DNA of 64,000 nucleotides from Promethearchaeota archaeon (GTDB taxonomy: Archaea; Asgardarchaeota; Lokiarchaeia; Sigyniarchaeales; SOKP01). The stretch covers positions 80,922 through 144,921 of the forward strand of contig JAGXNO010000003.1 of assembly GCA_019894975.1 (NCBI GenBank). The letters are read 5' to 3'. Position numbers and translations under genes: made by a program. The notes under the pieces are model-generated. The model had not been told where the DNA came from. It did no database searches and saw only the letters and a list, made by a program, of their open reading frames with translations. Shown piece by piece: positions 2,408-22,512 of this stretch; the first letter of the stretch is position 1, and the number at the start of each line of letters is the position of its first letter.

Positions 2408-2645
2408 TTTTTTTAATTAATTTAGAACTTAATAATATGTAACTATAATGATTAGGGAAAAAAGGGAAACAATTTATTTTTTCTGATTAGTTTTCATAAT
2501 TCCACTAAGTCTTAATTGAAAAGGAAATAAAAAATGAAAATACCATGTTCTTTTCTATTTCTATATTAGAGTAATTATGGATTTTCTTCAATTTTATTAA
2601 AAATTCAATAATATCTAATAAAAGAATATTTTGGTTGAATATTAT

Positions 2646-4151: not shown

Positions 4152-4185
4152 AATCTTAGAAATTTTCGAAACATCTTTTTTTTAT

Positions 4186-7266: not shown

Positions 7267-7368
7267 TATTTAGCACTTCTAATTTTTTTTAATAAGGTTT
7301 AGTTTACAGAATCTTTTTTCCCGTTGAATAAAAAATAAGGATATGAAATTATATAAACATTTTTATAA

Positions 7369-7478
7369 TGAATGATCAGAATCTAACATTTTTTGCTTTG
7401 TGAATGATCAGTCCCAAATATTTGTCACTTTTATATTTTCGTAATCAACCATTCCGTTACTTTTGTATTTTCGTAATC
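7369..7478. repeat. Two pairs of short direct repeats upstream of hdrA
   Basis: TGAATGATCAG at 7369 and 7401; ACTTTT(A/G)TATTTTCGTAATC at 7427 and 7459. Each pair is 32 bp apart. Confidence 0.6.
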
Positions 7479-7782
7479 GTTTATTTTGTTTGTTAATGTT
7501 ATATTATTAGGAAGAATAGATCCAGATTGATAACTTATTTTGGGTTTTAAGATGGATTCAAGCATGATCACAATTCTTTCTTACCTATTATCTGCATTAT
7601 GTTTATTGGTGATAATAAAAAATGGATTAATGATCCATATCTCTCACACAAATCCAAATACTTATTAAGATTGATCAAAGATCAAAGATATAATAGAGAA
7701 AATACTATTCTTTGAAAAAAAATGATTTTAGAATAAAAATTTTTTTTGGAACTATTAATAAAAATTGAGATAAATTCTTTAT

Positions 7783-8214
7783 TTATTTTAGTTTTAAAGG
7801 TCCTTGTTCTTTTATTTGATTTGTAAATTCTGTAATTACCTCTGAAAATCTCTTCCCTTCAGAGGCACTAACCCATTCAAGTCTAAACCTTTTTTTAAGA
7901 TTAAATATTTTTAAAACATCCTGAAAACGTTCAAATCTATCTCGTGCAAACTCGTTACCTTTTAAGTAGTGACAATCTCCAATATGACACCCAGTTACAA
8001 TAACTCCATCAATGCCATCTTTAAATGCTTCTAAAATGAAGGCAGGATCTACTCTCCCAGAGCACATTACCCGTACTATCCTAATTGTAGCAGGGTATTG
8101 AAATCGTGAGACTCCCGCCAAATCTGCTCCCGCATAACTGCACCAATTGCAACAAAAACATAAAATTTTTGGGTGAAATTCCTTTTGACTTACTTTTTTT
8201 TTTGACTTAGACAT
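7783..8214 (-). CDS. mvhD: MvhD/FlpD [2Fe-2S] subunit, all-cysteine form
   Basis: CFCCNWCSYAGADLAG, RVMCSGRVD, GCHIGDCHY, WVSASEG. Confidence 0.95.
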   Translation of the reverse strand: MSKSKKKVSQKEFHPKILCFCCNWCSYAGADLAGVSRFQYPATIRIVRVMCSGRVDPAFILEAFKDGIDGVIVTGCHIGDCHYLKGNEFARDRFERFQDVLKIFNLKKRFRLEWVSASEGKRFSEVITEFTNQIKEQGPLKLK

Positions 8215-8238
8215 AAGTTACTACCTTAGAATTTAACT

Positions 8239-11200
8239 TTAGGTTAATAGTGCTGAAATCATTGCATTAATTTGCTCAAAACCAAAATGTTTGATTACTA
8301 TTGTGGAATTAGGACATTGAGCCCCACAAGTACCACAACCTTTACAGAGTGCAGGATTAATATGAGATTTCTTTGTAGCCATTGTAAAATCTTCAAACAC
8401 TCGTTCTTTCTCTATTAGTTCAATCGCGTTGAATTGGCAGACATCTTGACAATTTCCACAACCAATACAATTTTCTTCTATTACAGTCGCTACAAGCCCT
8501 GATGTTACAATTTTTTCAGCACTTAATATTTTTACTGCTTGAGCAGCAGCTCCATTGGATTGTGCTATTGACTCTCGAAGATCTTTAGGTGAATGAGCAC
8601 ATCCACATAGGTATATTCCATCGGTTGCGAAATCTATTGGTCTCAACTTAACGTGAGCTTCTAAAAAGAATTTATCCTCGTTTAACGGAACTTTTAACAT
8701 TTTCGCTAATTCTTCGTTTTCTTTGATTGGTGCTTCTAATCCTGTACTTAAAACGATTAGATCTGGATTTATTATAAGTTCTCCTAAATCAGGATTATTT
8801 ACTCTTAAATTTAATTGTTTGTTTTTTAAATTTAATTCTGGGGGATTGGTTTTATCAAATCTGATAAAAATAATGTTATTATCTCGCGCTTGGTTATAAT
8901 ATTTTTCTTTAAAGCCATAGGTTCTAATATCGCGATATAAGACCACTATTTCTATATTAGGATTAATTTCTTTTGCTTTTAACGCATTTTTTATGGCTTC
9001 TGAACAACAGATTCTACTACAATATGAGTGTTCTTCATTTCTGGACCCAACACATTGAATCATAACTATAGATTTTAATCCTTTTATCTTATCTGTAGTA
9101 AAAAGATCTTTTTCAAAGTTAGTTTGAGTTATAATTCTTTTATCTTGCCCAAATTTATATTCTTTTGGTTGATATTCTTTTGCTCCAGTAGCTACAATAA
9201 TTATGCCATGATCAAGATCAATGCTTTTCTTAATACTCCCATGGCTAATGTTTGTGGAAAAATTTCCAATATATCCTGAGATTGAATTAATTCTGGCTTC
9301 TTTAAATACATGGATAAGTTGATTACTTTCTACATTTTTAATCAAATTCCTAAGATAATCTTGAATATCATCATTTTCAAGTGTTTTATAAAGATTATTT
9401 GCAATCCCCCCTAAAGAATCTTCTTTTTCAATTAAAAATATCTCAAAACCTTGAGAGGCAAGGTTTAATGCTGCAGTGATTCCAGATACACCCCCACCTA
9501 TAATTAATCCCTTATCTATCACAGCTATTTCTTGTTCTTGTAATGGTATTAATTGACTAGCCTTTGCTACTGACATCCTTAGTAAGTCTTTCGATTTTGC
9601 TGTTGCTTTTTCTGGTTCATGCATATGAACCCATGAGCATTGATCACGGATATTAACCATTTCAAAAAGATATTTATTCAAACCAACCTCTCTTATAGTT
9701 GCTTGAAATAAAGATTCATGAGTTCTTGGGGTACATGAGGCAACTATTACTCTATTAAGTTGGTTCTTTTCTATTTTTTCTTTAATATTAGTTTGAGTAT
9801 CTGCTGAACATGTATACAAATTATGCTCTGCATAAACGACATCGGGCAGTGTCTTAACATATTCTACAACACTAGGAACATCAACTACACCCCCGATGTT
9901 TATCCCACAGTGACATATAAATACACCTATTCGGGGTGGAAGACTACTTACGTCTAATTCATTGGGAAGTTCTTTCTTTGAGATTAATTTATTTCTTGCT
10001 TCTGATAATAGAACATTGACACGTCCTGCAGCAGCACTAGCTTCAATAACAGTTTCTGGAATATCTTTAGGTGCTGCAAATGCACCACATACATAAATTC
10101 CCGGTTTAGAGGTCTCTACGGGAGAAAAAGTTTCAGTTTTACAAAATCCATAATCATTTAATTCAAAATTTAATACTTGTGCTAATTCTTTTGCTTTTTG
10201 ATTTGGTTGCATTCCAACAGAAAGAACAACTAAGTTAAAAATTTCTTCCACAATTTTTCCATTTTCATTTTCATAATAGACTCTTAAATCTTTAGAGTTA
10301 GGGTTTTCTTTTATGTAAGAAATTCTACGTCTGATGTATCTTACTCCATATTCATCTCTCGCTCTCTCAATATACTTATCAAAGTCTTTACCGTACGCTC
10401 TGATATCCATCGTAAAAATGGTTGGTTTTATAATTTCCATATGTTCTTTCGCGATTACAGCTTCTTTTGTAGTGTACATACAGCATACTGAAGAACAGTA
10501 TTCAATACCTTTACTTCTATCCCTTGAACCAATACAATGTAAAAATGCTATTTTTTTAGGAATAGTTCCGTCAGAAGGTCGAATTATTAAACCGGAATGC
10601 GGTCCACTTGCACTAAGAATACGTTCAAATTCAATACTGGTAATCACATTAAGATATTTACCATAACCATATTGTGTCAGAGGAGTGGGATCATATTCAT
10701 CAAATCCAGTTGCTACTACTACAGCACCCACATTAAGAGATATCTCTTTATCTTGAATTTCATAGTCTATAGCTTTTGCTTTACATATCCCTTTGCACAT
10801 TCCACAGCCAATGCATTTTTCTTTATTTATTGAAAACACTAATGGAACCGCCTGTGGAAATTTTACAGATATTGCAGCTTTATTAGAAAGCTTTTCATTA
10901 AAAAAATCAATAGCTTCAATAGGGCATTCCTGAGCGCATAAACCACATCCAGTACATTTGCTTTGATCCAAACGAAGCGTCCCTTGAGTTAATTCAACAT
11001 TAAAATTACCAGGTTCACCATCAATTTTTTCGATTGAAGTGTTAATTAAAATATCGATATTTTCATGTCGACCAGTTTCTACTAATTTCGGGGCCAGAAT
11101 ACATATTGCACAGTCATTAGTTGGAAATGTTTTATCCAATTGAGACATAACCCCCCCAATACTGGTAGTGGATTCTGCGAGGTAAACTTTATATCCAGAA

Positions 11201-11274
11201 TCTGCTAGATCTATAGAGGTTTGAATACCTGCAATTCCACCACCAATAACTAAAACAGCTCCAACTTTTTCCAT
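8239..11274 (-). CDS. hdrA: Large (~1000 aa) HdrA-family protein
   Basis: Same architecture as 4186..7266: TFPTNDCAIC, YCSSVCC, GVFICHCGINI, VASCTPRTHE, YCSRICC, C-terminal ferredoxin. Confidence 0.92.
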   Translation of the reverse strand: MEKVGAVLVIGGGIAGIQTSIDLADSGYKVYLAESTTSIGGVMSQLDKTFPTNDCAICILAPKLVETGRHENIDILINTSIEKIDGEPGNFNVELTQGTLRLDQSKCTGCGLCAQECPIEAIDFFNEKLSNKAAISVKFPQAVPLVFSINKEKCIGCGMCKGICKAKAIDYEIQDKEISLNVGAVVVATGFDEYDPTPLTQYGYGKYLNVITSIEFERILSASGPHSGLIIRPSDGTIPKKIAFLHCIGSRDRSKGIEYCSSVCCMYTTKEAVIAKEHMEIIKPTIFTMDIRAYGKDFDKYIERARDEYGVRYIRRRISYIKENPNSKDLRVYYENENGKIVEEIFNLVVLSVGMQPNQKAKELAQVLNFELNDYGFCKTETFSPVETSKPGIYVCGAFAAPKDIPETVIEASAAAGRVNVLLSEARNKLISKKELPNELDVSSLPPRIGVFICHCGINIGGVVDVPSVVEYVKTLPDVVYAEHNLYTCSADTQTNIKEKIEKNQLNRVIVASCTPRTHESLFQATIREVGLNKYLFEMVNIRDQCSWVHMHEPEKATAKSKDLLRMSVAKASQLIPLQEQEIAVIDKGLIIGGGVSGITAALNLASQGFEIFLIEKEDSLGGIANNLYKTLENDDIQDYLRNLIKNVESNQLIHVFKEARINSISGYIGNFSTNISHGSIKKSIDLDHGIIIVATGAKEYQPKEYKFGQDKRIITQTNFEKDLFTTDKIKGLKSIVMIQCVGSRNEEHSYCSRICCSEAIKNALKAKEINPNIEIVVLYRDIRTYGFKEKYYNQARDNNIIFIRFDKTNPPELNLKNKQLNLRVNNPDLGELIINPDLIVLSTGLEAPIKENEELAKMLKVPLNEDKFFLEAHVKLRPIDFATDGIYLCGCAHSPKDLRESIAQSNGAAAQAVKILSAEKIVTSGLVATVIEENCIGCGNCQDVCQFNAIELIEKERVFEDFTMATKKSHINPALCKGCGTCGAQCPNSTIVIKHFGFEQINAMISALLT

Positions 11275-12551
11275 TATTTTTCTCCTTTAGGTTCATTTGA
11301 GTTTACTACTTCTATCATGTCTACTAAAAACTCAGAAAAATCTATAATATCAATTGAAGAAAAATCTTCATAATCTTTTTTTAGACATCTTAAATGCATT
11401 CGGCATTTTGGACAGGAAGTAATCATTTTTGTTCCTACTGCTTTAGCTTCCAAAAGACGCTTATATCGTAGAGCTTTAGATTTTTCATTACAATTCATCC
11501 AGGAATTCACCCCACAACAATAAGAATTTTCTTTATTATGTTCCATTTCTTTGAAATCATATCCAATGGTTTTCAAATGCTTAAAAATTTCTCGGACATT
11601 CTCAATTACCTTATTCTCCTTTGGTAAAAACCGACTTAATCTACAAGGATCGTGATAAGTGAAAGGAATAACATCATTAGATTCATTAGGATTTTTAAAT
11701 TGAACTTCTCCCTGCTTCCACTTATCAAAAATATATTCAATTATATGTTTAACTTCAAATTTATTATTAAATTCTTCAAAAATATTTGGGTAATCAATTT
11801 TAAAGGTTCTATAACATTCAGCACATGCGGTTATAATTGTTTTGATACCTGCGTCTTCAAAATTACTCAAATTTTTTTTTCCTAATTCGATAAATGCTTC
11901 GAACTTTGCCTGGCCCCAATATAGATCATGACCACAACATGTTTCATTTTTAAGAACGACTACGGGATCTCTTTCTAATTGACAAATAATCTTTAAAGTG
12001 CTTTCCGCTATAGAAGTTGAACCTTCAAATTCATAATTAAATAAAGGTAAACATCCCACATAATATAAAATTTCTCCTTTATTTGAAACGTTACAACCTT
12101 TTGGAATCCAATCTAAAGGTCTTTCAATATTAATATTATCTTGAACCATTAGTTCTGACATTAGAGGATAAATACCTTTGTGAGCAATTGAACGATCAGG
12201 ATTCTGAATATCATTTAATCGCATTTTATACCTGGCAATTCTAACAATATCAGCAAAATTAATGTCTTTAGGACAATGTTGTAGGCAACTATTACACATT
12301 AAACAATCCCATAATACCTGGCTATTAATTATCTCATCTTCAAAGCCTTCTAATATCATCTGAATAATTCTACTTGGCGTAAATTTTTGAACTTTACTAA
12401 TTTGACATACACCTGAGCAACGAGCGCATTGGTAACACTTTTTTAGTAAATTAACTAAATCAGGTTCATAAATTTTTCCTATATATAAATTAGAATCAGT
12501 TTTTCCTATTTTTTCTTTTTTTAATTTTTCCAATTCTGTTATACGATTCAC
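11274..12551 (-). CDS. HdrD/GlpC-like Fe-S oxidoreductase, paralog of 1127..2407
   Basis: CYQCARCSGVC, CLMCNSCLQHCP, two complete CCG domains. TAATG overlap with the downstream hdrA. Confidence 0.9.
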   Translation of the reverse strand: MNRITELEKLKKEKIGKTDSNLYIGKIYEPDLVNLLKKCYQCARCSGVCQISKVQKFTPSRIIQMILEGFEDEIINSQVLWDCLMCNSCLQHCPKDINFADIVRIARYKMRLNDIQNPDRSIAHKGIYPLMSELMVQDNINIERPLDWIPKGCNVSNKGEILYYVGCLPLFNYEFEGSTSIAESTLKIICQLERDPVVVLKNETCCGHDLYWGQAKFEAFIELGKKNLSNFEDAGIKTIITACAECYRTFKIDYPNIFEEFNNKFEVKHIIEYIFDKWKQGEVQFKNPNESNDVIPFTYHDPCRLSRFLPKENKVIENVREIFKHLKTIGYDFKEMEHNKENSYCCGVNSWMNCNEKSKALRYKRLLEAKAVGTKMITSCPKCRMHLRCLKKDYEDFSSIDIIDFSEFLVDMIEVVNSNEPKGEK

Positions 12552-12555
12552 TACC

Positions 12556-13668
12556 TTATTTTAGGTTTTTCATAAATTCATGTTTTCTTTCCATTTTTGA
12601 TTCAGAAAACTTTACGATTAGATTTTTTATACTTCTTCTTTTACTTTCGTCGAGTTTTAAACTTTTTATAATGTTTTTTTCCAACACCTTATTAAATATC
12701 TGTTTTCCTTTTTCAGTACGGGGCAATACAGTAGTAAATTTATCTGGGGAACCAAGTCCACCAAACGAAATATCTGAATAAACATTAGTAAAATCAGTGC
12801 AGGAATGACAAGCAGGACGAATATAATTAACTAGTTTATTAAAAGGAATATGGATTATTTTTTCTTTTTCTTTTTCATCCTTTAGTTTTAGAATTAAATC
12901 TTCCTTAATATTTATCTTGATTATATCTTCGAATTTTATCTTAAATTCTTCTTCAAATTTCCCAATTTGAGATTTTTCAAATAAAAAATTATGATAACAG
13001 AATAAGCCAAAAGTAATCTCAACATGTTCTGAAGGGGTAACCCCAAGATTTTGCATACATCTAATCGTGTAGATTTGACATGGTGTTCCCACAATTGCTA
13101 GTTTTTTAAATTTATAATGATTCAGTTGAGGAATTGATTGTGTATAAGTATTAAACCTTTGAATTTCATCTAAATGAGGTGATATATTCAAATTTGTACC
13201 TGAAGCTTTGATTAAGTCGTCTTTAGTCTCTGCAAACATAGCTTCTCGGGAAAAAGGACCCTCAGCTTTAGAGACTATTGCCCCATCAATAATTTTATTT
13301 TCCAATAAAAAATTTAAAAGTGTATTAACCACGCCCCCATCTGTACCATATTTTAGAAATTCTTCATCTGTGGTTTGACATGAATAGATTTCTTCAGCAA
13401 ATCCATAAGGCATTGAAGTGAAATCAGTGAATTGATAAGTTTTATTCAGATCATCATCTAAAATATGTGTTTGAGGGCATAATATATAACATATACCACA
13501 ATCGAGACATGCCTCCTTATTTATATATTCAGGGGGAGAATTAGGTTTTTTAAAGCCAATAACTTTTTCAAAAGCCGCTGAGCAGAATGATGTACATCCT
13601 CCACATTCTTGGCAGATCCCTTTTTCATGAACTTCCTTAATTAAATCTTGGAATGTTTTTACAGGCAT
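12556..13668 (-). CDS. FrhB/FdhB-family F420-binding beta subunit
   Basis: N-terminal 2x[4Fe-4S], GTDGGVV, IVGTPCQ, GLFC, CHSCTDF..SDISFGGLGSP. Start moved to ATG 13668 (MPVK) to avoid overlap with the upstream gene. Confidence 0.88.
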   Translation of the reverse strand: MPVKTFQDLIKEVHEKGICQECGGCTSFCSAAFEKVIGFKKPNSPPEYINKEACLDCGICYILCPQTHILDDDLNKTYQFTDFTSMPYGFAEEIYSCQTTDEEFLKYGTDGGVVNTLLNFLLENKIIDGAIVSKAEGPFSREAMFAETKDDLIKASGTNLNISPHLDEIQRFNTYTQSIPQLNHYKFKKLAIVGTPCQIYTIRCMQNLGVTPSEHVEITFGLFCYHNFLFEKSQIGKFEEEFKIKFEDIIKINIKEDLILKLKDEKEKEKIIHIPFNKLVNYIRPACHSCTDFTNVYSDISFGGLGSPDKFTTVLPRTEKGKQIFNKVLEKNIIKSLKLDESKRRSIKNLIVKFSESKMERKHEFMKNLK

Positions 13669-13684
13669 ATTTTTAATATTTACA

Positions 13685-15193
13685 TTACTCTTTCTGTAAA
13701 ATAATTGGTTTACAATTTTTTCTCTTAATACCAGCAATCCTTTCGAGTAAGGGTTGTCCTGGTTTGACATCTTTCAAACTTTTTGATTCAATTAATCCTG
13801 CTTTAACTGCTTCTTTATAGATTTTTTCACCTTTTTTATTTCTTGTAATGACTGAAGACCACCCGCTGGGAGATCCAATTGATCCAACAGAAATATCAGC
13901 ATAATCAGCAGTTAGGTCTTCACAATAATGACAATTGTGACGAGCGTAGGATTTAACATCGTTCAAGGGAACGTTTAGATCTTCACCTGAATCTAGATAA
14001 ATAATGAATTTACCCCCACTTATGTCCATTTTTGTTACTTTTTGAAAATCTGTTTCAAATTGTTCTTTAATTAAGCTTAGGACGCCTTCATAAGGAAATG
14101 ATTCCATACAAAAGAGCCCTATTCTATATTTTATATTTTTGAAAAAAGGTAACCCGCTTGGAAATAAGCTACCCTTTTCCAAGGCGTTCATCATACAAGG
14201 AACACCTACAACTGCGATGTTATCAAACTTTTTTGTACCATCTATAATACTTAAAGTTGAGGCATTAGCGTATTTAGTACCACTTGTTTTATATAAATCC
14301 TTGACATCTTCTATTATTACTGGTTCTGGCTTCCATAGTTCTTCTGAATGTTTTACTGCTACAATTGCATCAACTAATTTATTCTCGAGTAAATACTCAA
14401 GTAGAGATGTAACGATACCCCCATCTTGTCGTACTTTTTTAATATCATCCTTGGTGGTGCTGGCTGAATATGCGTTAACATAGCCATTAATATTTTCTGA
14501 AAACTTCAAGGATTTCTCAATTTTGCTTATACTTTTACCCGCTTGCTCAATTGAAAATGATCTTGGGCAAACAGAATAACATAAGCCACATTTCATGCAT
14601 GTCGCATCGTCGATCTCCAAAGTGTCTGCTGTCACTGTAATGGCATTTACTGGACAAATTGATGAGCACCAACCACATTGACAACATACTTCAGAATCAA
14701 ACACAATGGAAACAGGTTCAAAAAACCGTTCGATAAAACCATCAGGTAGATCTTTAACCTGGTATCGGTAGAAATATTCTTTTTCTTCGACTTCTTTTTC
14801 TTCTCCCTTTATTTTCTTAATAACAGTTTTAGTTTTTATTTCAATATGTTCTTCTATATATCCTTGTTCTTTCAGATAAATTACATCGCGAATTACATTT
14901 TCAGGAGGAAAATCTTTTATAATTTTAGCAATTTCTTCTAAAAATAACGGTTCTTTACCTTTTAAAGATTCTAAAACTAACTTACGCTCTGTTTCAGCAT
15001 CGATCATAGCATCTAGGAATTCATAAAATTCTTCTTCAGAATATTTACCAGTTTCTAAAATTTCACCTTTAGCTTCGAAAAAAGCCCTAATCTGAAAATT
15101 CTCGACTGCTTTATAGGTGGCATCCATTAAATTTCTTGGAGAGATTCCATTGAAATTTAGATTTTTTGAGATTTGAACCATATTTCCAACCAT
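13685..15193 (-). CDS. FrhB-family F420-binding subunit with an N-terminal helical/winged-helix-like extension
   Basis: CCQCGWCSSIC, CMKCGLCYSVCP, QDGGIVT, VGVPC, GLFCME, CHYCED..ADISVGSIGSP. About 160 aa of extra N-terminus. Confidence 0.88.
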   Translation of the reverse strand: MVGNMVQISKNLNFNGISPRNLMDATYKAVENFQIRAFFEAKGEILETGKYSEEEFYEFLDAMIDAETERKLVLESLKGKEPLFLEEIAKIIKDFPPENVIRDVIYLKEQGYIEEHIEIKTKTVIKKIKGEEKEVEEKEYFYRYQVKDLPDGFIERFFEPVSIVFDSEVCCQCGWCSSICPVNAITVTADTLEIDDATCMKCGLCYSVCPRSFSIEQAGKSISKIEKSLKFSENINGYVNAYSASTTKDDIKKVRQDGGIVTSLLEYLLENKLVDAIVAVKHSEELWKPEPVIIEDVKDLYKTSGTKYANASTLSIIDGTKKFDNIAVVGVPCMMNALEKGSLFPSGLPFFKNIKYRIGLFCMESFPYEGVLSLIKEQFETDFQKVTKMDISGGKFIIYLDSGEDLNVPLNDVKSYARHNCHYCEDLTADYADISVGSIGSPSGWSSVITRNKKGEKIYKEAVKAGLIESKSLKDVKPGQPLLERIAGIKRKNCKPIILQKE

Positions 15194-15252
15194 TTGGATT
15201 AAAATTTATTAAAAAACTTATACTTAAATTGAATACTATTTTAAAACCCCTT

Positions 15253-15312
15253 CCCTCGCAAGGTAAGTCATCTTATAACTAACATTTTTTTATAAGATTC
15301 ATTCTGCAGGGG
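15253..15312 (-). promoter_or_regulatory. Eukaryote-type SECIS element
   Basis: Minus strand reads CCCCUGCAGA-AUGA-AUCUUAUAA-AAAAAUGUUAG-UUAUAAGAU-GA-CUUACCUUGCGAGGG. It has an AUGA/GA core, a perfect 9-bp upper helix, an A-rich apical loop and an imperfect lower helix, and lies directly at the end of two UGA-containing genes. Confidence 0.85.
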
Positions 15313-15772
15313 TAATTATAACTTGTTTTGTTTCTTCAGTTTCCACTTCTGAATCATGATCTATTAAATTAAGCGGACTTGGTCCGAAGGTTTTTACCTT
15401 TTCTATAGTATCTTCCACACTTTTTACAAATTTTTCTGCTTCTGCTCCACTTAACCAATACATATTAACCCTTTGATTACCGAAACCCCGAGATTCTAAA
15501 ATCCTGTTTGCTAATTCAACATGTCTTTGAGCCGTGAAATTGCCGTTCTTAAACTGGCATTCATTAGGGCGTCAACCTACAATCATGACACCATCCGCTC
15601 CAGATTTCATACTGTAAAGTATGTGTTTCAAATCTACTCTCCCTGTACAACGCACTTTAATAATTTTTATAGATGAAGAATATTTCAGTCGAGAAACTCC
15701 TGCTAGATCAGCAGCACTGTAACCTCATTTTAAACATGCAAATGCAACAATCTTATAATTATAATTATTCAT
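15299..15772 (-). CDS. vhuD: Selenoprotein VhuD/MvhD [2Fe-2S] subunit, 157 aa, Sec16 and Sec67
   Basis: Manual translation MNNYNYKIVAFACLK-U-GYSAADLAG..VRCTGRVD..GADGVMIVG-U-RPNEC..WLSGAEA. In-frame TGA at 15725-15727 and 15572-15574 align to Cys in the paralog at 7783..8214. Missed by the ORF track. Confidence 0.92.
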
Positions 15773-15775
15773 TGT

Positions 15776-17722
15776 TTAATCCCCTCCTAACAGTCCATCA
15801 ATCTCAGCAAATAATTGATGATCTCGATAATATCTTATATCAATGGCCTGAGTAGGACAGCAAGTTGCACAAATACCGCATCCATCACAATTTATCTCAT
15901 CAATATATGCTCCAATTTCTTCATCAATCTTAATAGCGTTTTTAGGGCATTCCTTTTCACATCGTCTGCAGGAAATGCAAAATTCGCTATCAACTTCAGC
16001 AGTAATTAATTCAATATCAATTTCTCCTGGAGATGTTAGTTCAGCAACTTTACTAGCAGCAGCTCTAGATTGTGAAACGGAATAAGCAATATTTTTTGGC
16101 CCTTGAGCAAATCCAGCTATAAAAATGCCTTTTGACTTAGTCTCTTGCGGCATTAATCCGAAATGTGATTCTGTAAGAAAGCCGTATTTGTTAGTATCAA
16201 GCTTTAAAACGTCTACGATTTGTTGAGTGCCTTTTGAAGGAAGTGCTGCCGTGGATAAGACAACTAAATCAGCATCAATTTTGACAATCTTATCAGTTAA
16301 TGATGAATATAATCGAACTTTCACGTTTTTAGTTTCAGGATCTTCTGAGATTTCACCAACTTTTCCCCGAATCATCCTAATACCTTTATCTTTCGCACGT
16401 TCATAATACTCCTCAAAACCTTTTTCTGGAGTCCTTATATCGATATAACAAATTGTAATCCTCGCATCAGGAAATTCTTCTAGAAGCAATCTCCCATTCT
16501 TTAGAGCAAGCATACAACAGACACCACTACAATAGGTTCTTTCTGTTTCTCTACTGCCCACACATTGAATGAACACAATTTCCTTAGGTTCCTTATTATC
16601 TGAAATTCGATGCACATGACCTTCAAGTGGTCCATTTGGAGCTAACATCCGTTCTAATTGAACCTGGGTTATCACATTTTCAATCTCTCCATAACCATAT
16701 TCACCAAAAGGTTCATGTATATCCCAACCAGTTGCAATTATGACTGTACCCACTTCAACATTAACTTCCACTGGCTCCTGACTAAAATCAATTGCATCCA
16801 ATTCGCACGCATCAACGCATGAAAAGCATTCTACACAAGCTTCTCTATCAATATCATATAAAAATGGGACTGCTTGACCGAATGGAATGTCTATTGCTCT
16901 TCGTGCTCCCAGATTTTCATCAAAATAATTTTGCGTGTAAACAGGACAAACTTCAGCACAGGCCCCACACCCATTACATTCATCTGTCGTATATCGTGGT
17001 TTCTTTACAATTGTTGCGATATAATTACCAACATATCCTTCGATCTTTTTTACTTCACAATAGCTCATTAATTCGATGTTTTCGTTTCTATTAACTTCTA
17101 ACATTTTAGGCCCGCAAATTCATATTGCACAGTCATCTGTAGGAAAAGTTCTATCCAATTGAGCCATCCTTCCTCCTATTGTAGTCTTTTGTTCTACAAG
17201 ATAAACTTTGATACCTTGATTGGCGAGATCTAAAGCCGCATTCATACCACCAATCCCTCCTCCAACTACTAAAGTAGCTTTAGTAACAGGGACTGTTTTA
17301 ATAGGGACGGGCTCTAATCGTTTAACTCGTTCAACACCGCCTTTTACCAATTGTTTAGCTTTTTGTGTAGCTTCTTCTTTGCTATCTGTACACCAAGAAC
17401 AATGTTCTCGAACGTTTACCATTTGAAAATAATAAGGGTTTAAATCTGTTTTAGCAATTGTACCCCTATAAATTACTTCGTGCGTTCGGGGAGTTCAAGC
17501 TGATGCTACGATTCTGTTTAGATTTTTTTCTTTGATATCTTCAATTATTTCATTTTGGGCATTGTCGGTTCAAAGAAATGCATTCTTTTTTGATATTATA
17601 ATTTCTTCAGGAAATTCGTTTTTAACATACTCTACTAGCTCATCACAATTAACTTTACTTTTTATATTTATACCTCACTGACATGCATAGTATCCAATCC
17701 GATGATTTGTATTTTTATTCAT
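15776..17722 (-). CDS. hdrA: Selenoprotein HdrA, 648 aa, four Sec (U16, U51, U76, U201)
   Basis: A single frame from ATG 17722 joins ORFs 17120..17422 and 15776..17104. In-frame TGA at 17675-77 (ACQ-U-GINI), 17570-72 (FL-U-TD), 17495-97 (ASA-U-TPRTHE) and 17120-22 (DDCAI-U-ICGPK); each is Cys in the HdrA paralogs in this window. Canonical HdrA length. Confidence 0.92.
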
Positions 17723-18177
17723 TTCTTTTTACACATCCACCTCGTGTTATTTATACAAGATTGTATAATAGAATATAATTTTCTGAATTTACTAATTCTT
17801 TTCTTAGGTTTTATTCTTTTTTAAACTTTTTTAATCTTTCTGTTTATCGATATAAACAGTTTTTAGATTTTGAATAATTGTAATATTTCATTTCAAATCA
17901 ATCTGATACTTTTTGAAAGTTTTATGATGGAGAATAAAAAGAGATTAGGGTTTCATGATCGTTTTCATACATTTTTATTCAGATTAGTAATTTTAATTCA
18001 TTCTAATATTCTGATTCTTACTATTCAGCTGTCAAAATTGTTATTCATAATAAAAGATTAGAGAGAAATTAGTTTTAAGCAAATTCTTTTTAGGAAAAGA
18101 GAAATCAATAGCGATGTTTATATTCTATGCGAAATAATTGCATTTAAGTAATTAGAGATTTAGAATATAGTGAAAAC

Positions 18178-19512
18178 ATGACAAAGATCCATACTAAGAT
18201 AAATCTCATTGTTTTAATAGGGATTGCTTTTTTTATTACTTTTGGTTTAAATGCTTTGAAATCCACGCCCACATCTCCGAATTCTACTGCTATAGGTTCA
18301 AACATGAGAATTGCGGCAGCGCAAGTTAATTATACATCGGATTTCATAAACACTTGGGGTGGTATTGATAGTGATACCGGATGGGATATTGCGTTAGATG
18401 ACTCCGGAAATATCTACATCTCGGGATCTACTGAAAGCTTTGGTGCGGGTAAGGATGATGCTTTTATAGCTAAATTTGACAGTTCAGGAAATTCTATTTT
18501 GAACATTACATGGGGCGGTAGTGGTATTGATGCTGGTACAGGTATAGTGTTAGATGACTCCGGAAATATCTATATTACGGGAGCTACAAATAGCTCTGGC
18601 ACGGGTAACTTCGATGCTTTCATTGCTAAATTTAACAGCACAGGACATTCCTTATTGAATATTACATGGGGTGGCAACGATGCTGATGGGGGATATGATA
18701 TTTTACTGGATGATTCCGGAAACATCTTCATAACTGGTTATACTGAAAGCTTTGGTGCAGGTGATAATGACGCTTTTATTGCTAAATTTAACAGTACAGG
18801 ACATTCCTTACTGAATGTTACCTGGGGTGGCAGTGATAGTGATGATGGATATAGTATTGCATTAGATGCCTTAGGAAATATTTATATTGCAGGTAGCACC
18901 TGGAGTTTCGGAATAGATGCTTTTATTGCAAAATTTAACAGTTCAGGGCATTCCTTGCTGAACATCACTTGGAGTGGCGGTGATGCTCAATTTGGATGGG
19001 ATATGGCGTTAGATGGGTCCGGTAATATCTATATTACAGGATATGTTTATGGATTTGGGAATTTGGCTCAAGCTTTCATTGTTAAATTTAATAATACAGG
19101 GCATTTAAAAATGGAAATCATTTGGGGTGGCAATAATTATGATGTAGGATTTGGTATTGCATTAGATGGGTCCGGAAATATCTACATAACCGGAACAACT
19201 GATAGTTTTGGCGCAGGTGGCTATGATCTTTTCATTGCCAAATTTAACAGTACGGGGCATTCTTTACTGAATACTACCTTGGGTGGTATTGATGATGATT
19301 GGGGAAAAGGTATTGCATTAGATAATTATGGTAATATTTTCATCACAGGATATACTGAAAGCTTTGGTGCAGGATCTCATGATACAATAATTGCAAAATA
19401 TAGGCAGATTAGTGATAATGATTCAGGATCCATCCCAGGATATGATTTACTTTTTCTCATTGGATTCTTAGGGTTATCCTTAGTACTCCTTACCAAAAAA
19501 TATATCAAATAA
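18178..19512 (+). CDS. Secreted 7-repeat beta-propeller (SBBP-like) protein with IPGY-TM-basic C-terminal sorting signal
   Basis: N-terminal signal, seven ~52-aa repeats (TWGG..D.G.GIALD.SGNIYITG.T.SFGAG..DAFIAKF), C-terminal SIPGYDLLFLIG..KKYIK. Confidence 0.88.
   Translation: MTKIHTKINLIVLIGIAFFITFGLNALKSTPTSPNSTAIGSNMRIAAAQVNYTSDFINTWGGIDSDTGWDIALDDSGNIYISGSTESFGAGKDDAFIAKFDSSGNSILNITWGGSGIDAGTGIVLDDSGNIYITGATNSSGTGNFDAFIAKFNSTGHSLLNITWGGNDADGGYDILLDDSGNIFITGYTESFGAGDNDAFIAKFNSTGHSLLNVTWGGSDSDDGYSIALDALGNIYIAGSTWSFGIDAFIAKFNSSGHSLLNITWSGGDAQFGWDMALDGSGNIYITGYVYGFGNLAQAFIVKFNNTGHLKMEIIWGGNNYDVGFGIALDGSGNIYITGTTDSFGAGGYDLFIAKFNSTGHSLLNTTLGGIDDDWGKGIALDNYGNIFITGYTESFGAGSHDTIIAKYRQISDNDSGSIPGYDLLFLIGFLGLSLVLLTKKYIK
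18350..19400 (+). repeat. Intragenic tandem repeat, ~156-bp unit, about 7 copies
   Basis: GATGA(C/T)TCCGGAAA recurs at 18397, 18553 and 18709 (period 156). Boundaries approximate. Confidence 0.8.
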
Positions 19513-19714
19513 TATTTTTTTCTTTTCATTTTTTTCAAATTATTTTAGCATTTAGATACTAAAAGACAGGTAGAAATAGGATTAAAGTCTGAGTATTCTA
19601 AGAAGAAATTAAAAAAATACCTATATTGATAATATTAAATTTTTAAATAGGAATCCGACAATACTCTTATATAAGAAATATTTACTGAATAATATAGTTT
19701 AAAGATGTGAGAAT

Positions 19715-20524
19715 ATGACAGATGGAATCTTTATAATACGAGGTGGTTTTTTTGGGTGGGAATTTACAATTAAACTCCTTTATGTTATATTAGGACTTAT
19801 CCTTTGCATTTATGACTGGAAGAAGAATAAAAGAAAAGATTATTTCTGGGTGTTACTATTTGGTACATTTTTGTACCTTGGATCTGAAATAATGCTCTTT
19901 TCTTTTGGAGGTCGAGTTATGCAGGAACAGCTTTTATTTGGTATGGATATCAGTTCCATACCCGGGTTATGGATTCCCCTACTAGCTGTGGGAGATGTTG
20001 TAGTGCTAGCAGTGATCGCTTTGTTTTTCGCAGATAGAATAAGAGTCTCTGAAACACGAAAAAAGTGGGGAATTGTTTTCATAGTATGGGTATTTTTTAG
20101 AGATGTATTACCCTATTTAATCCTTTTTGGATTGGGAGACAATTTTGACACTGTTTCTGTGGGAGACCCTCTTATTTATTCTAGAAGAAATATGATAGAA
20201 ATAGGTACTCTAATAGCTTTATCAACTATGATCGCTATTGGTATAATCTGGCTCGTTAAAACAGATAAGAAATCAAGAAAGCGAGGATTATATATGATTG
20301 GTATAATGCTTATTCTGATGATAGTATGGAGTCTCGGAGAATGGTTCTCTGGTCAAAGATGGATCGAAATTGGGCCGGAGGAAGGTCCTTGGACTCTTGC
20401 GCCCCCTCTTCTAGGGTTTATGATGTTCCTGTATGATATTATCATCGAAATGGGACTTTTTACGGTGTGTTTTCTAGCATTTCCCTATTTATTAAAATTG
20501 ATAAAATCCGATAACCAAGATTAA
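19715..20524 (+). CDS. Multi-pass membrane protein of unknown function
   Basis: 269-aa ORF with about 7 hydrophobic segments. Confidence 0.75.
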   Translation: MTDGIFIIRGGFFGWEFTIKLLYVILGLILCIYDWKKNKRKDYFWVLLFGTFLYLGSEIMLFSFGGRVMQEQLLFGMDISSIPGLWIPLLAVGDVVVLAVIALFFADRIRVSETRKKWGIVFIVWVFFRDVLPYLILFGLGDNFDTVSVGDPLIYSRRNMIEIGTLIALSTMIAIGIIWLVKTDKKSRKRGLYMIGIMLILMIVWSLGEWFSGQRWIEIGPEEGPWTLAPPLLGFMMFLYDIIIEMGLFTVCFLAFPYLLKLIKSDNQD

Positions 20525-20555
20525 TTCTCTTTTTTTTTAATTTTAGAATTAGCCT

Positions 20556-21536
20556 TTAACTGTGAGAATTTAGGGTACTACGATATTCTTTATAATAAAG
20601 TGATTTGTATAAAAGAAATTTCCTCACAATTGGTCTAAACATTGCTGTAAATAAATGTGAAAATGCGACTTTTTTTCGTACTTCATTAAAATAATCATCA
20701 AGCGTATGTCTTTGGTACTGTAATAGAGCTTGACTTTTATCTGTAGTCAAGTATCCACAGTGAAATCCCTTTGTGCTGAATGCTTCTGGAGGTAAAGGGC
20801 TCCTTCCTATCCCGAAAATATCAAACATCTCATTAAGATAATCTTTATAAGAAATACGACATCTTTCGCCACCAGCGATATGTAATGTCTCACCCCATAT
20901 ATCCCTATTTTCTACAGCATTTGCAAGAGCTAGACCAACATCTTTTGTATCACAAATTTCAATGCAAGTGTTTAACGGCATTTCAAACATAAGTGGATCT
21001 AATTGAAGTTTATTGATAGATACAATATAAGTCAAACGGCAAATTACCCATTTTAATCCTGAATTCCTAACAAGTTCTTCACATTTTACCTTTTGTTTGG
21101 CATATTCATCATCGTCATTTGGATTAAGTGGGTCAATAGGTCGAATTAAAGGATTTTCAGTTCTATCACCATAAATAGCTACCGATGAGGTGAATATGAG
21201 CTTTGGTTTTTGTGGTTGTTTTTCCATTGCTTCAATAACATTCAAGGTTCCTCCAACGTTAACTGCTTCAGCAAATTTAGGTTTTCTATCAGCAAGAGGA
21301 GGAATTATCGCAGCTACATGAATTATGACGTCGCAACCAGTAACGGCTAATTCTACATCTTTTGGATTTCTCAAATCTCCCCAGAATATTTCTGCCTGAT
21401 TCTTAAATTTGCGTGCTAGATGACGATTTCTTTTATTCTTTATCTCAAAAATCCTTACGTCATAATTTCTTCTTAGCAATTCTTTCAATGTGCTTAGGCC
21501 TACATTGCCAAATGCTCCCGTTAATAATATTCTCAT
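20556..21536 (-). CDS. NAD-dependent epimerase/dehydratase (extended SDR)
   Basis: TGAFGNVG, HVAA, FTSS, YAKQK. Confidence 0.9.
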   Translation of the reverse strand: MRILLTGAFGNVGLSTLKELLRRNYDVRIFEIKNKRNRHLARKFKNQAEIFWGDLRNPKDVELAVTGCDVIIHVAAIIPPLADRKPKFAEAVNVGGTLNVIEAMEKQPQKPKLIFTSSVAIYGDRTENPLIRPIDPLNPNDDDEYAKQKVKCEELVRNSGLKWVICRLTYIVSINKLQLDPLMFEMPLNTCIEICDTKDVGLALANAVENRDIWGETLHIAGGERCRISYKDYLNEMFDIFGIGRSPLPPEAFSTKGFHCGYLTTDKSQALLQYQRHTLDDYFNEVRKKVAFSHLFTAMFRPIVRKFLLYKSLYYKEYRSTLNSHS

Positions 21537-21550
21537 AATATTCTCACTTT

Positions 21551-21574
21551 TGATATATCACTTCTGGATATATC
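21551..21574. promoter_or_regulatory. Tandem GATATATC palindromes, candidate PadR operator
   Basis: TGATATATCA at 21551-21560 and GATATATC at 21567-21574, just upstream of the SDR start. The same octamer occurs upstream of padR. Confidence 0.4.
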
Positions 21575-21805
21575 ATTCTTAAATATATAAAGAAAAATCA
21601 TATATATAAATCTTGGGGAAAACATAATACTATGATTAAAAATTGCATCTATTGGAATATATATAAATATATATGCAAAAATGATTTATAGAAATAAGAT
21701 TAATTAGAATAAAATTAAGGGAGTATAATCATAACTTTTAAATATATAGTTTTATATTCTAGTGATAGAAAGTTAAAAAAATAACAAGGGTGAAAAAGCA
21801 AAAAA

Positions 21806-21910
21806 ATGACTACTAAAGGGATTTACGAGGTTGTATTAGGCATCATTGGAATGTCTGGTTTGGCTGCCCTATGTGTCGTTATGTTGTTGTTGCTTGGTCT
21901 TGTAGCTTAG
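21806..21910 (+). CDS. Putative 34-aa single-pass membrane microprotein
   Basis: MTTKGIYEVVLGIIGMSGLAALCVVMLLLLGLVA. More GC-rich than its flanks, upstream GGGTGA, fills the gap convergent with padR. Confidence 0.5.
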   Translation: MTTKGIYEVVLGIIGMSGLAALCVVMLLLLGLVA

Positions 21911-21933
21911 CAATAACTTAAACTTTATTCTTT

Positions 21934-22512
21934 TCAATCAGCTTTTAAACTTTCAATTCTTTGGTTAATTTCATTTACAACATTTTGTAATTTACTGACA
22001 ATTTTCGAAATAACTATTTTTCTTTTAGAGAGAATCTCAAGTTTTTCATTGACATCTTTACCAACTAAACTCGTATCCTCAATTAATTCAGGGCCAAACA
22101 AGCTTTCAAAATCATCTGGTATATTGGAATCAGTAATCCCGATTGTTGACATTATCATGGAAAGAAGTGATTTGCGCATATTTTGTTGCCGTTCGATAAG
22201 CTTTTTCAGAGTTTTTTTGCCTTTTTGCGTGATTTCATAAACTTTCCGTTCTCTTTTTCCCTCCATTTCAGAAGTAAACTCAATTAAACCTTTTTTTGTT
22301 AGAGATGATAAATGTGGATATAAAGATGATGCAGTCGGATTCCAAACTCCATAAGTGTCATCCTTTATTATTTGCATTAAACTATACCCATGAGAAGGCC
22401 CTTTTTCCAAAGTTAATAGTATTAAAGTGCTAATATGGCCTTTTTTCATTGAGTTTTCAATTGCATCAGCAATTGCGTCGATTTTTTCTATTTCTTCTTG
22501 TTTTCCACTCAT
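21934..22512 (-). CDS. PadR-family transcriptional regulator
   Basis: ILLTLEKGPSHGYSL..SLYPHLSSLTKKGLI..RKVYEITQKG. Start placed at ATG 22512 (MSGK). Confidence 0.9.
   Translation of the reverse strand: MSGKQEEIEKIDAIADAIENSMKKGHISTLILLTLEKGPSHGYSLMQIIKDDTYGVWNPTASSLYPHLSSLTKKGLIEFTSEMEGKRERKVYEITQKGKKTLKKLIERQQNMRKSLLSMIMSTIGITDSNIPDDFESLFGPELIEDTSLVGKDVNEKLEILSKRKIVISKIVSKLQNVVNEINQRIESLKAD

What the first reader, a model, noticed from the sequence alone, without database searches (positions are those of the whole stretch)
15253..15312. A single eukaryote-like SECIS that contains the vhuD stop codon and may serve six UGAs in two cistrons
Seen: an AUGA..GA core, 9-bp helix AUCUUAUAA/UUAUAAGAU and A-rich loop. 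The UGA of the AUGA core (15299-15301) is in frame as the vhuD terminator, with a backup UAA three codons later. hdrA and vhuD are only 3 nt apart, so hdrA has no 3' UTR of its own. Inference: one SECIS recodes four UGAs in hdrA (up to ~2.4 kb away, across a stop and restart) and two in vhuD, while its own core UGA acts as a stop. A terminating ribosome would also unfold the element, which could provide feedback.
Basis: partly seen in the sequence, partly recalled or inferred. Interest (0 to 1): 0.85.

Follow-up and report, generated by a model that had tools for sequence, protein, structure and literature searches.

The report
Shared Lokiarchaeal SECIS containing vhuD stop
This is a genuine eukaryote-like selenocysteine insertion hairpin at the end of an hdrA-vhuD gene pair in a Lokiarchaeon (Promethearchaeota) genome; it is the only such signal for six selenocysteine codons and holds the vhuD stop codon, but this arrangement was already published in 2016.

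Summary
On the minus strand, AUGA (15302-15299), a perfect 9-bp helix, an 11-nt loop AAAAAUGUUAG and GA match the published "lokiSECIS" consensus in every feature. The full element is slightly larger than reported (15313-15246). It adds a 6-bp lower helix whose 5' strand is the last vhuD codons, and a small 3' side hairpin.

All six in-frame UGAs (4 in hdrA, 2 in vhuD) align to Cys in paralogues. The genome carries tRNA-Sec, SepSecS, EFsec and Sec-containing selD.

In 40 orthologous loci from related MAGs:
- There is exactly one SECIS, always after vhuD.
- hdrA never ends in UGA.
- The helices covary.
- An unbiased structure scan of the whole operon finds nothing else.
- The vhuD stop is the core UGA in 25 of 41 loci; in all other resolved loci it lies 4-19 nt upstream.

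The "backup UAA" is part of the stem. It is equally common where it cannot act as a backup.

The shared SECIS, six UGAs over about 2 kb and stop-in-AUGA are all described by Mariotti et al. 2016 (PMC4989117) and Huang et al. 2024 (PMC11227280). The feedback idea is untested. This scan had already noted the same stretch in an overlapping window of this genome.

Verdict: real, well supported, not new.

The parts
15776..17722 (-). hdrA, 648 aa, with four in-frame UGA (Sec) codons: 16 (17677-17675), 51 (17572-17570), 76 (17497-17495) and 201 (17122-17120). Stop is UAA at 15778-15776.
   Evidence: ORF under TGA=U. Pfam finds FAD/Pyr_redox and 4Fe-4S domains. All four UGAs align to Cys in paralogues of the same genome. 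They are Sec or Cys in 40 orthologues.
15783..15787 (-). GGAGG Shine-Dalgarno-like motif inside the last hdrA codons, 10 nt before the vhuD AUG. It suggests coupled translation.
   Evidence: Read from the sequence. Its function is inferred.
15299..15772 (-). vhuD/mvhD, 157 aa, with Sec codons 16 (15727-15725) and 67 (15574-15572). It terminates at UGA 15301-15299.
   Evidence: Pfam FlpD PF02662, E = 2e-44. Both UGAs align to Cys in 9 paralogues and are UGA in all 40 orthologues.
15246..15313 (-). Complete lokiSECIS: three helices around an AUGA/GA core.
   Evidence: Model R1 hit at 15231-15326, 112 bits; the window's own sequence was in the model. Covariation on alignments A1 and A2. It is the only conserved structure in the operon alignment, z = -8.
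15308..15313 (-). Helix I, 5' strand ACCCCU. It lies in the last vhuD codons (..T P A E).
   Evidence: Pairs with 15251-15246. Compensatory changes (ACUCCU/AGGAGU, ACACCU/AGGUGU) occur in orthologues. In the model-fitted set, 6/6 pairs show double changes.
15299..15302 (-). SECIS core AUGA. Its UGA is the vhuD stop codon.
   Evidence: Invariant in 29/29 aligned orthologues. It is the in-frame stop in 25/41 loci.
15290..15298 (-). Helix II, 5' strand AUCUUAUAA. It contains the in-frame UAA at 15292-15290.
   Evidence: 9/9 pairs here. In A1, 6 of 9 pairs show compensatory changes and 97.7% of cells are paired.
15279..15289 (-). Apical loop of 11 nt, AAAAAUGUUAG. It has the A-run at the start and AG at the end.
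   Evidence: Matches the published consensus (PMC4989117). The G at the last loop position is invariant in A1.
15270..15278 (-). Helix II, 3' strand UUAUAAGAU.
15268..15269 (-). 3' core GA, followed by an invariant C (GAC).
   Evidence: One search lists A59 and C60 as invariant. One orthologue has AA instead of GA.
15253..15263 (-). Helix III: a small 3' side hairpin CCUU-GCG-AGGG between the core GA and helix I.
   Evidence: 91% of cells are paired in A1. It is present with different sequences (CCCG/CGGG, CCUA/UAGG, AUGG/CCAU, AGGA/UCCU) in the other lokiSECIS of this genome.
15246..15251 (-). Helix I, 3' strand AGGGGU, followed by a conserved U-run.

Best explanation
The element at 15313-15246 (minus strand) is a type-I Asgard 'lokiSECIS'. 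It consists of a kink-turn-like AUGA/GA core at the base of a 9-bp helix, capped by an 11-nt A-rich loop. A lower helix and a small side hairpin close the structure.

It sits at the 3' end of an hdrA-vhuD bicistron and is the only Sec insertion signal for the unit. Acting at a distance through the archaeal/eukaryal-type EFsec machinery, it lets ribosomes read four UGAs in hdrA (1.8-2.4 kb upstream) and two in vhuD (0.27-0.43 kb upstream) as selenocysteine.

The seventh in-frame UGA is the core UGA itself. A ribosome with that codon in its A site has already unwound helix I and covers helix II, so the SECIS cannot exist at that moment. That UGA therefore terminates vhuD.

What is shown: anatomy, conservation, covariation, uniqueness of the element, the Cys/Sec alignments, and presence of the Sec machinery.
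What is inferred: Sec insertion itself, co-transcription, and termination at the core UGA.
For: 1. Every published lokiSECIS feature is present: AUGA, 9-bp stem, 11-nt loop, AAAAA start, AG end, GA after the stem, and position at the CDS end.
2. Covariation: on the MAFFT alignment of 29 orthologues, 9 of 19 pairs show double changes and 92% of cells are paired, against 42-61% when partners are slid. On the model-fitted set of 43 matches (40 orthologues plus 3 weak hits), 17 of 19 pairs show double changes.
3. Uniqueness: R1 with filters off finds one hit in the 64-kb window, and the next best is 15.4 bits. The same model recovers all six other SECIS of this genome at 26-52 bits. It finds exactly one element in each of 40 orthologous loci, always after vhuD. 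Sliding RNAalifold over the operon in 37 loci shows only the SECIS (z about -8); all other windows are weaker than z = -2, and none away from the SECIS is weaker than -1.
4. All six UGAs align to Cys in paralogues. Sec is conserved at hdrA codons 16, 76 and 201 and at vhuD codons 16 and 67 in all orthologues that cover them.
5. hdrA ends in UAA or UAG in 41/41 loci and never in UGA. This is expected if a UGA there would be recoded.
6. The stem codons after the core UGA evolve as RNA. The first stem base varies A/U/C/G together with its 3' partner (pair 35-64), not as a conserved peptide.
7. The genome has tRNA-Sec, SepSecS, EFsec and two Sec-containing selD genes.
8. Contigs from metatranscriptome runs of two studies bridge the hdrA-vhuD junction: X17 15311-15819, X19 15640-15865, X20 15655-15880. 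This is weak, because contigs do not prove a single transcript.
9. In Methanococcus, a 3'-UTR SECIS works over 520-679 nt and can directly abut the CDS (PMC9622424).
Against: - There is no experimental evidence for Sec insertion, for a bicistronic mRNA, or for the VhuD C-terminus in any Lokiarchaeon.
- Single-sequence folding energy is not better than shuffles (z = -0.94).
- Rfam's eukaryotic and bacterial SECIS models give no hit at E <= 10.
- A distance of 2.4 kb, across a stop and a restart, has no experimentally validated precedent.
- In a system with coupled transcription and translation, the first ribosomes reach hdrA codon 16 before the SECIS is transcribed. That timing problem is unsolved.
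- The SECIS is melted by every ribosome that finishes vhuD.
Confidence: 0.85

Rival explanations
1. hdrA uses its own, different recoding signal, and the element after vhuD serves vhuD only. Candidates would be a bacterial-type hairpin just after each UGA, a 5'-leader element, or a Methanococcus-type SECIS.
For: The distance (1.8-2.4 kb) and the intervening stop and restart are unprecedented. A solo Sec-hdrA elsewhere on the same contig has its own SECIS 12 nt after its stop, so hdrA can own one.
Against: No second lokiSECIS appears in the window or in any of 40 orthologous loci. No conserved structure of any kind appears in hdrA or its 200-nt leader. The gap between the genes is 3 nt. All three Sec-hdrA + Sec-vhuD pairs of this genome have one element, after vhuD.
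Confidence: 0.07
2. The core UGA is itself read as Sec some or most of the time. VhuD would then end ..TPAEUIL at the UAA three codons on, and the UAA would be the true stop.
For: An in-frame UAA lies at +9 in 22 of 25 loci that stop at the core UGA, and at +12 in two more.
Against: The same UAA sits at the stem top in 10 of 12 loci where vhuD has already stopped 4-19 nt upstream, so it is a stem feature. One locus would need 22 extra codons. The 'codons' covary with the 3' stem strand rather than conserving a peptide. Decoding that UGA requires the element to be unfolded. The published view is that there is a minimum UGA-SECIS distance (PMC4989117).
Confidence: 0.05
3. The hairpin is primarily a transcription terminator or mRNA-stability hairpin at the operon end, and its SECIS-like motifs are incidental.
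For: Helix I is followed by a conserved run of U, GGGGUUUU(U). Archaeal termination uses oligo-U. The next gene starts 53 nt downstream.
Against: The unpaired positions (AUGA, GA, the AAAAA..AG loop) are the most conserved. Stem and loop lengths are fixed at 9 and 11. The element occurs only behind ORFs with in-frame UGA in this genome. A terminator role could coexist with the SECIS role.
Confidence: 0.03

Closest known systems
lokiSECIS shared by HdrA-VhuD tandem pairs in Lokiarchaeum GC14_75 and related metagenome contigs (Mariotti et al. 2016, PMC4989117)
   Same: The core, the 9-bp stem, and the 11-nt loop with AAAAA start and AG end are the same. So are the single element after vhuD, up to four Sec in HdrA plus two in VhuD (six UGAs over about 2 kb), the very short intergenic gap, and HdrA never ending in UGA.
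   Different: This is another genome (a 3.9-Mb Promethearchaeota MAG). Here I also document the lower helix inside the CDS, a covarying 3' side hairpin, and how often the stop sits in the core across 41 loci. I could not check whether the paper's figures or supplements already show the side hairpin.
VhuU.1 lokiSECIS whose AUGA doubles as the stop codon (Mariotti et al. 2016); Huang et al. 2024 (PMC11227280) state that Lokiarchaeial UGA stops often overlap the AUGA motif
   Same: The gene's stop codon is the UGA of the SECIS core.
   Different: Here the gene is vhuD and the 3' core is GA rather than AA. The overlap is conserved through one orthologue clade (25/41) but replaced by an upstream UAA, UAG or UGA in others.
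Eukaryotic SECIS (Rfam SECIS_1) and multi-UGA SelenoP mRNAs
   Same: [quoted passage not shown]
   Different: The upper helix is only 9 bp. There is no Rfam hit. SBP2 has not been found in Lokiarchaeota (PMC4989117). The element overlaps the CDS and the stop codon, it serves two cistrons, and it has an extra 3' side hairpin.
Methanococcales/Methanopyrus VhuD SECIS (Mariotti et al. 2016, Fig. 4B text)
   Same: The element lies after vhuD, has AUGA on the 5' side and GAC/AAC on the 3' side, and has an extra short stem. hdrA-vhuD synteny is also shared.
   Different: Those elements keep the euryarchaeal GAA_A bulge architecture, and hdrA there has one Sec.

Membership tests
lokiSECIS (Asgard eukaryote-like SECIS, type I) | AUGA immediately 5' of the main stem | tested here: met
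   AUGA at 15302-15299. Invariant in 29 orthologues.
lokiSECIS (Asgard eukaryote-like SECIS, type I) | 9-bp main stem and 11-nt apical loop | tested here: met
   9/9 Watson-Crick pairs and an 11-nt loop. The lengths are kept in the resolved orthologues, apart from two with a 12-nt loop (L032, L067), and in 5 paralogous elements.
lokiSECIS (Asgard eukaryote-like SECIS, type I) | Apical loop begins with A's (AAAAA) and ends with G, usually preceded by A | tested here: met
   The loop is AAAAAUGUUAG. The last loop G is invariant in A1.
lokiSECIS (Asgard eukaryote-like SECIS, type I) | GA (or AA) immediately 3' of the stem | tested here: met
   GA at 15269-15268.
lokiSECIS (Asgard eukaryote-like SECIS, type I) | Located at or just after the 3' end of a gene with in-frame UGA aligned to Cys in homologues | tested here: met
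   The element overlaps the vhuD end. All six UGAs align to Cys.
lokiSECIS (Asgard eukaryote-like SECIS, type I) | Structure supported by compensatory changes | tested here: met
   Shuffled and slid controls score far lower.
lokiSECIS (Asgard eukaryote-like SECIS, type I) | Host encodes the Sec machinery (tRNA-Sec, SepSecS, EFsec, SelD) | tested here: met
   PSTK was not searched.
lokiSECIS (Asgard eukaryote-like SECIS, type I) | Directs Sec insertion at upstream UGA | not testable with these tools
   This needs selenium labelling, a reporter or proteomics. It has not been shown experimentally for any lokiSECIS in the papers read.
Eukaryotic SECIS (Rfam SECIS_1) | Match to the curated covariance model | tested here: not met
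   No SECIS family hit at E <= 10 over 10000-22000. Published tools also fail on Loki elements.
Eukaryotic SECIS (Rfam SECIS_1) | AUGA..GA non-Watson-Crick quartet with apical unpaired A's | tested here: met
   The motifs are present by sequence. The kink-turn geometry itself is not testable here.
Euryarchaeal (Methanococcus-type) SECIS | GAA_A bulge between a lower stem and a short G+C-rich upper stem | tested here: not met
   Reading the element shows an AUGA/GA core and an A+U-rich 9-bp stem with no GAA_A bulge. No other conserved hairpin exists in the operon.
HdrA / VhuD (MvhD) selenoproteins | Family domains, with Sec at conserved Cys positions including the canonical HdrA site near residue 200 | tested here: met
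   Pfam hits. U201 and U16/51/76 in HdrA, and U16/67 in VhuD, align to Cys.

The most novel reading that the evidence does not exclude
Placing the vhuD stop inside the SECIS core may be a functional device rather than mere compaction. Every ribosome that completes vhuD must melt helix I and the kink-turn core. The rate of vhuD termination would then transiently switch off Sec decoding for ribosomes still upstream in hdrA and vhuD. This could tune HdrA:VhuD output or couple it to selenium supply. The covarying 3' side hairpin (helix III), found in the other lokiSECIS of this genome and not mentioned in the text of the two papers I read, could help rapid refolding or serve as the protein-binding platform in a lineage without SBP2.
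Probability: 0.1. Interest if true: 0.6.

Novelty: already known. Interest (0 to 1): 0.28.

Why it matters
The arrangement itself is remarkable. One 3' RNA element appears to recode six UGAs over 2.4 kb and across two cistrons, in the archaeal lineage closest to eukaryotes. This bears on how the eukaryotic SECIS arose. It has been in the literature since 2016, however.

What this window adds is modest: an independent, clean confirmation in another genome and in 40 related genomes. The specific additions are:
- Exactly one element per locus.
- hdrA never ends in UGA (41/41).
- The vhuD stop is the core UGA in 25/41 loci.
- The "backup UAA" is a stem feature.
- A better-defined three-helix anatomy.

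These could guide reporter constructs, since no lokiSECIS has yet been tested experimentally in the papers I read.

Tried and rejected
- Rfam scan at E <= 10 over 10000-22000: only chance hits (snoRNA, miRNA and similar) and no SECIS family.
- Single-sequence folding: not distinguishable from shuffles, so stability was dropped as evidence.
- A loose hairpin pattern (loop 9-14 nt, <= 1 mismatch) gave 267 genome hits against 228 in a simulated genome. It was useless and was replaced by the strict pattern.
- First version of the stop-finding script crashed on a locus cut by a contig end.
- For L062 and L063 the script ran through the stop, so their stop position is unresolved.
- RNA runs all held only small shares of the stretch and are stored as contigs. 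Lack of cover over 17782-18200, and over most of the SECIS itself, says nothing.
- No run gives transcript ends or strand.
- The supplement of PMC4989117 is not held, so the published VhuD stop-codon table and SECIS drawings could not be compared.
- Lenient Pfam scans of the two small Sec ORFs found nothing usable.
- No explicit pattern search for Methanococcus-type SECIS was run. Its permissive definition would give chance hits in A+T-rich DNA, so the conservation scan was used instead.

Full report
**What is there**

The genes lie on the minus strand. Under TGA=U, hdrA runs 17722-15776 (648 aa, four in-frame UGAs). vhuD/mvhD runs from 15772 (157 aa to the first terminal UGA, two internal UGAs). 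Pfam confirms both: FAD/Rossmann plus 4Fe-4S domains for HdrA, and FlpD PF02662 at E = 2e-44 for VhuD.

hdrA ends in UAA at 15778-15776. Three bases follow, then the vhuD AUG. A GGAGG motif sits in the last hdrA codons.

Downstream the RNA reads as follows:
- AUGA at 15302-15299
- AUCUUAUAA
- AAAAAUGUUAG
- UUAUAAGAU
- GA at 15269-15268

The core UGA is in the vhuD frame as codon 158, and UAA lies three codons later.

**Is it more than chance?**

Thermodynamic stability alone is not: z = -0.94 against shuffles. The motif is.

A strict pattern (AUGA, 9 bp, an 11-nt loop starting AAA and ending G, then GA or AA) finds four perfect and three one-mismatch copies in the 3.9-Mb genome. Five simulated genomes gave no perfect copy and 0-2 one-mismatch copies each. 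A seventh real element, with a 1-nt bulge, follows the C103 vhuD.

Six of the strict-pattern copies carry the AAAAA..AG loop. They sit at the 3' end of an ORF with in-frame UGA, or, for C74, downstream of an hdrA fragment. The remaining one-mismatch copy, on C131, was not followed up.

The genome has tRNA-Sec, SepSecS, EFsec and two selD genes that each carry one UGA.

**Are the UGAs Sec codons?**

tblastn of the two proteins against the whole genome shows many Cys paralogues. At HdrA positions 16, 51, 76 and 201, and VhuD positions 16 and 67, the paralogues carry Cys or, in three other loci, UGA again.

In 40 orthologous loci from other genomes of the same family (titles name Promethearchaeota/Promethearchaeia MAGs):
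- HdrA 16, 76 and 201 and VhuD 16 and 67 are UGA wherever they are covered.
- HdrA 51 is UGA in 22 loci and Cys in 16.

**Full anatomy and covariation**

Aligning the vhuD 3' ends of 29 orthologues (A1) shows a larger element than reported:
- Helix I: ACCCCU at 15313-15308, within the last vhuD codons, pairs with AGGGGU at 15251-15246.
- The AUGA/GA core.
- The 9-bp helix II.
- A small 3' side hairpin (helix III): CCUU 15263-15260 with AGGG 15256-15253.

Covariation on A1:
- 92% of cells are paired, against 42-61% when partners are slid.
- 9 of 19 pairs show changes on both sides.
- In helix II, 6 of 9 pairs are compensatory and 97.7% of cells are paired.

On the wider, model-fitted set of 43 matches (40 orthologues plus 3 weak hits), 17 of 19 pairs show double changes. 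That alignment leans toward the structure.

The same three-helix layout, with quite different helix I and III sequences, appears in the other lokiSECIS of this genome. The exception is the C87 element, where helix I was not aligned. Plain MFE folding predicts it in four of them without any model.

**Is it the only SECIS for the pair?**

Three independent checks say yes.
1. The strict pattern finds no other copy in the window.
2. Covariance model R1, run with filters off over all 64 kb, gives one hit (15231-15326, 112 bits; the window's own sequence was in the model). The next hit is 15.4 bits. As a sensitivity control, R1 detects all six other SECIS of the genome, none of them in the model, at 26-52 bits. 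In 40 orthologous loci that each cover hdrA, vhuD and flanks, it finds exactly one element, always after vhuD (44.9 bits or more). Nothing else scores better than E = 0.29.
3. A sliding RNAalifold scan (70-nt windows) was run over a MAFFT alignment of 37 loci, from 200 nt upstream of hdrA to 130 nt past vhuD. Only the SECIS stands out (z = -7.5 to -8.1). Every window away from the SECIS is weaker than z = -1.

The second criterion, non-conservation, is clearly not met either.

On the third criterion, separate transcription, the only data are weak. Metatranscriptome contigs of two studies bridge the junction: X17 15311-15819, X19 15640-15865, X20 15655-15880. Contigs cannot prove one transcript.

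**The stop codon in the core**

Across 41 loci the vhuD stop is placed as follows:

| Stop position | Loci |
|---|---|
| The core UGA itself | 25 |
| UGA 4 nt upstream of the core UGA | 4 |
| UAG 5 nt upstream | 4 |
| UAA 7-19 nt upstream | 6 |
| Unresolved | 2 |

The overlap is thus typical of one clade but dispensable. In every resolved case the CDS runs into helix I, so any ribosome finishing vhuD melts the element.

hdrA ends in UAA (34 loci) or UAG (7 loci) and never in UGA. This is what one expects if a UGA at that distance would be recoded.

The UAA three codons after the core UGA is the top of the 5' stem strand. It occurs in 22/25 loci with the stop in the core and in 10/12 loci where the gene has already stopped. 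It therefore shows no sign of selection as a backup. The first stem base after the UGA varies A/U/C/G together with its pairing partner. That stretch evolves as RNA, not as a peptide.

**Mechanism**

The best-supported reading is a distal, 3'-located, EFsec-dependent SECIS that serves all upstream UGAs of a coupled bicistron. Its own UGA terminates translation, because the element cannot be folded while that codon is in the A site.

- Established: in Methanococcus, a 3'-UTR SECIS works at 520-679 nt and can abut the CDS (PMC9622424).
- Inferred: action over 2.4 kb and across a stop and restart.
- Unsolved: how the first ribosomes cope before the SECIS is transcribed.

**Comparison with the literature**

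Mariotti et al. 2016 (PMC4989117) describe the following:
- the 9-bp/11-nt lokiSECIS with AUGA, AAAAA, terminal AG and GA;
- HdrA-VhuD pairs that share a single element after VhuD;
- up to four Sec in HdrA and six UGAs over about 2 kb;
- HdrA never ending in UGA;
- a minimal-distance argument for terminal UGAs;
- a gene (VhuU.1) whose AUGA is its stop codon.

Huang et al. 2024 (PMC11227280) extend this to 227 Asgard genomes. They state that Lokiarchaeial UGA stops often overlap the AUGA motif.

The finding is therefore real but already known. An earlier follow-up in this scan on the hdrA gene of the same stretch reached the same conclusion.

Possibly new details are helix III, the clade-wise statistics on stop placement, and a solo Sec-hdrA with its own SECIS. 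I could not check the papers' figures or supplements.

Noticed in passing
G000:C109:34070-36137 (+), about 45 kb before the window start; locus L003:2056-4138: A solo Sec-hdrA (678 aa, UGA at the positions equivalent to 16 and 201) ends in UAA. It has its own lokiSECIS (AA-type 3' core) 12 nt later, with no vhuD after it. Mariotti et al. report that HdrA always comes in tandem with VhuD. A near-identical SECIS lies on the 1-kb contig C74.
   Followed up: partly
window 15253-15263 (-); also L002-L005, L036 and L001: A small hairpin (helix III) lies between the 3' core GA and the lower helix. It is present in all seven lokiSECIS of this genome with different sequences, which is strong covariation across gene families. 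It is not mentioned in the text of the two papers read.
   Followed up: partly
G000:C87, locus L001:263-745 (-), SECIS at L001:252-218: A 161-aa ORF with two adjacent in-frame UGAs (..HADUUADIM..) is followed 8 nt later by a lokiSECIS (R1 26 bits). It has no Pfam family (best E = 0.2). It is a candidate Sec-Sec selenoprotein of unknown family.
   Followed up: partly
G000:C98, locus L002:4137-4454 (+), SECIS at L002:4431-4465: A 105-aa ORF (TTG start, hydrophobic N-terminus, a run of Asp, one UGA in CDIFUKR) has a 3' end that overlaps a strong lokiSECIS (R1 52 bits). It has no Pfam family.
   Followed up: partly
G000:C44:64016-71569: A Sec machinery cluster: SepSecS (64016-65314), tRNA-Sec (65491-65583) and EFsec (70454-71569) lie within 8 kb.
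   Followed up: partly
G000:C108:10686-12773 (loci L119, L120): Two tandem selD genes, each with one in-frame UGA. Their SECIS (type II in the literature) was not examined.
   Followed up: no
loci L038, L039, L043, L057, L058, L069: Some HdrA orthologues carry a further in-frame UGA at query positions 97, 103, 299 or 615. Position 51 toggles between Sec (22 loci) and Cys (16 loci).
   Followed up: no
window 15193-15246 (-): The SECIS is followed by a conserved GGGGUUUU(U)AAAUAG block, 53 nt before the start of an FrhB-like gene (15193-13685). The U-run could be a terminator and the TTTAAATA-like stretch a TATA box for the next gene. It is unclear whether the Sec unit is read through into the frhB genes.
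   Followed up: no
window 1-17722 and contig C109 generally: The contig has an unusually dense set of hdrA and mvhD paralogues, including rearranged HdrA forms with the N-terminal Fe-S domain placed internally. All of these are Cys versions, next to the Sec pair.
   Followed up: no
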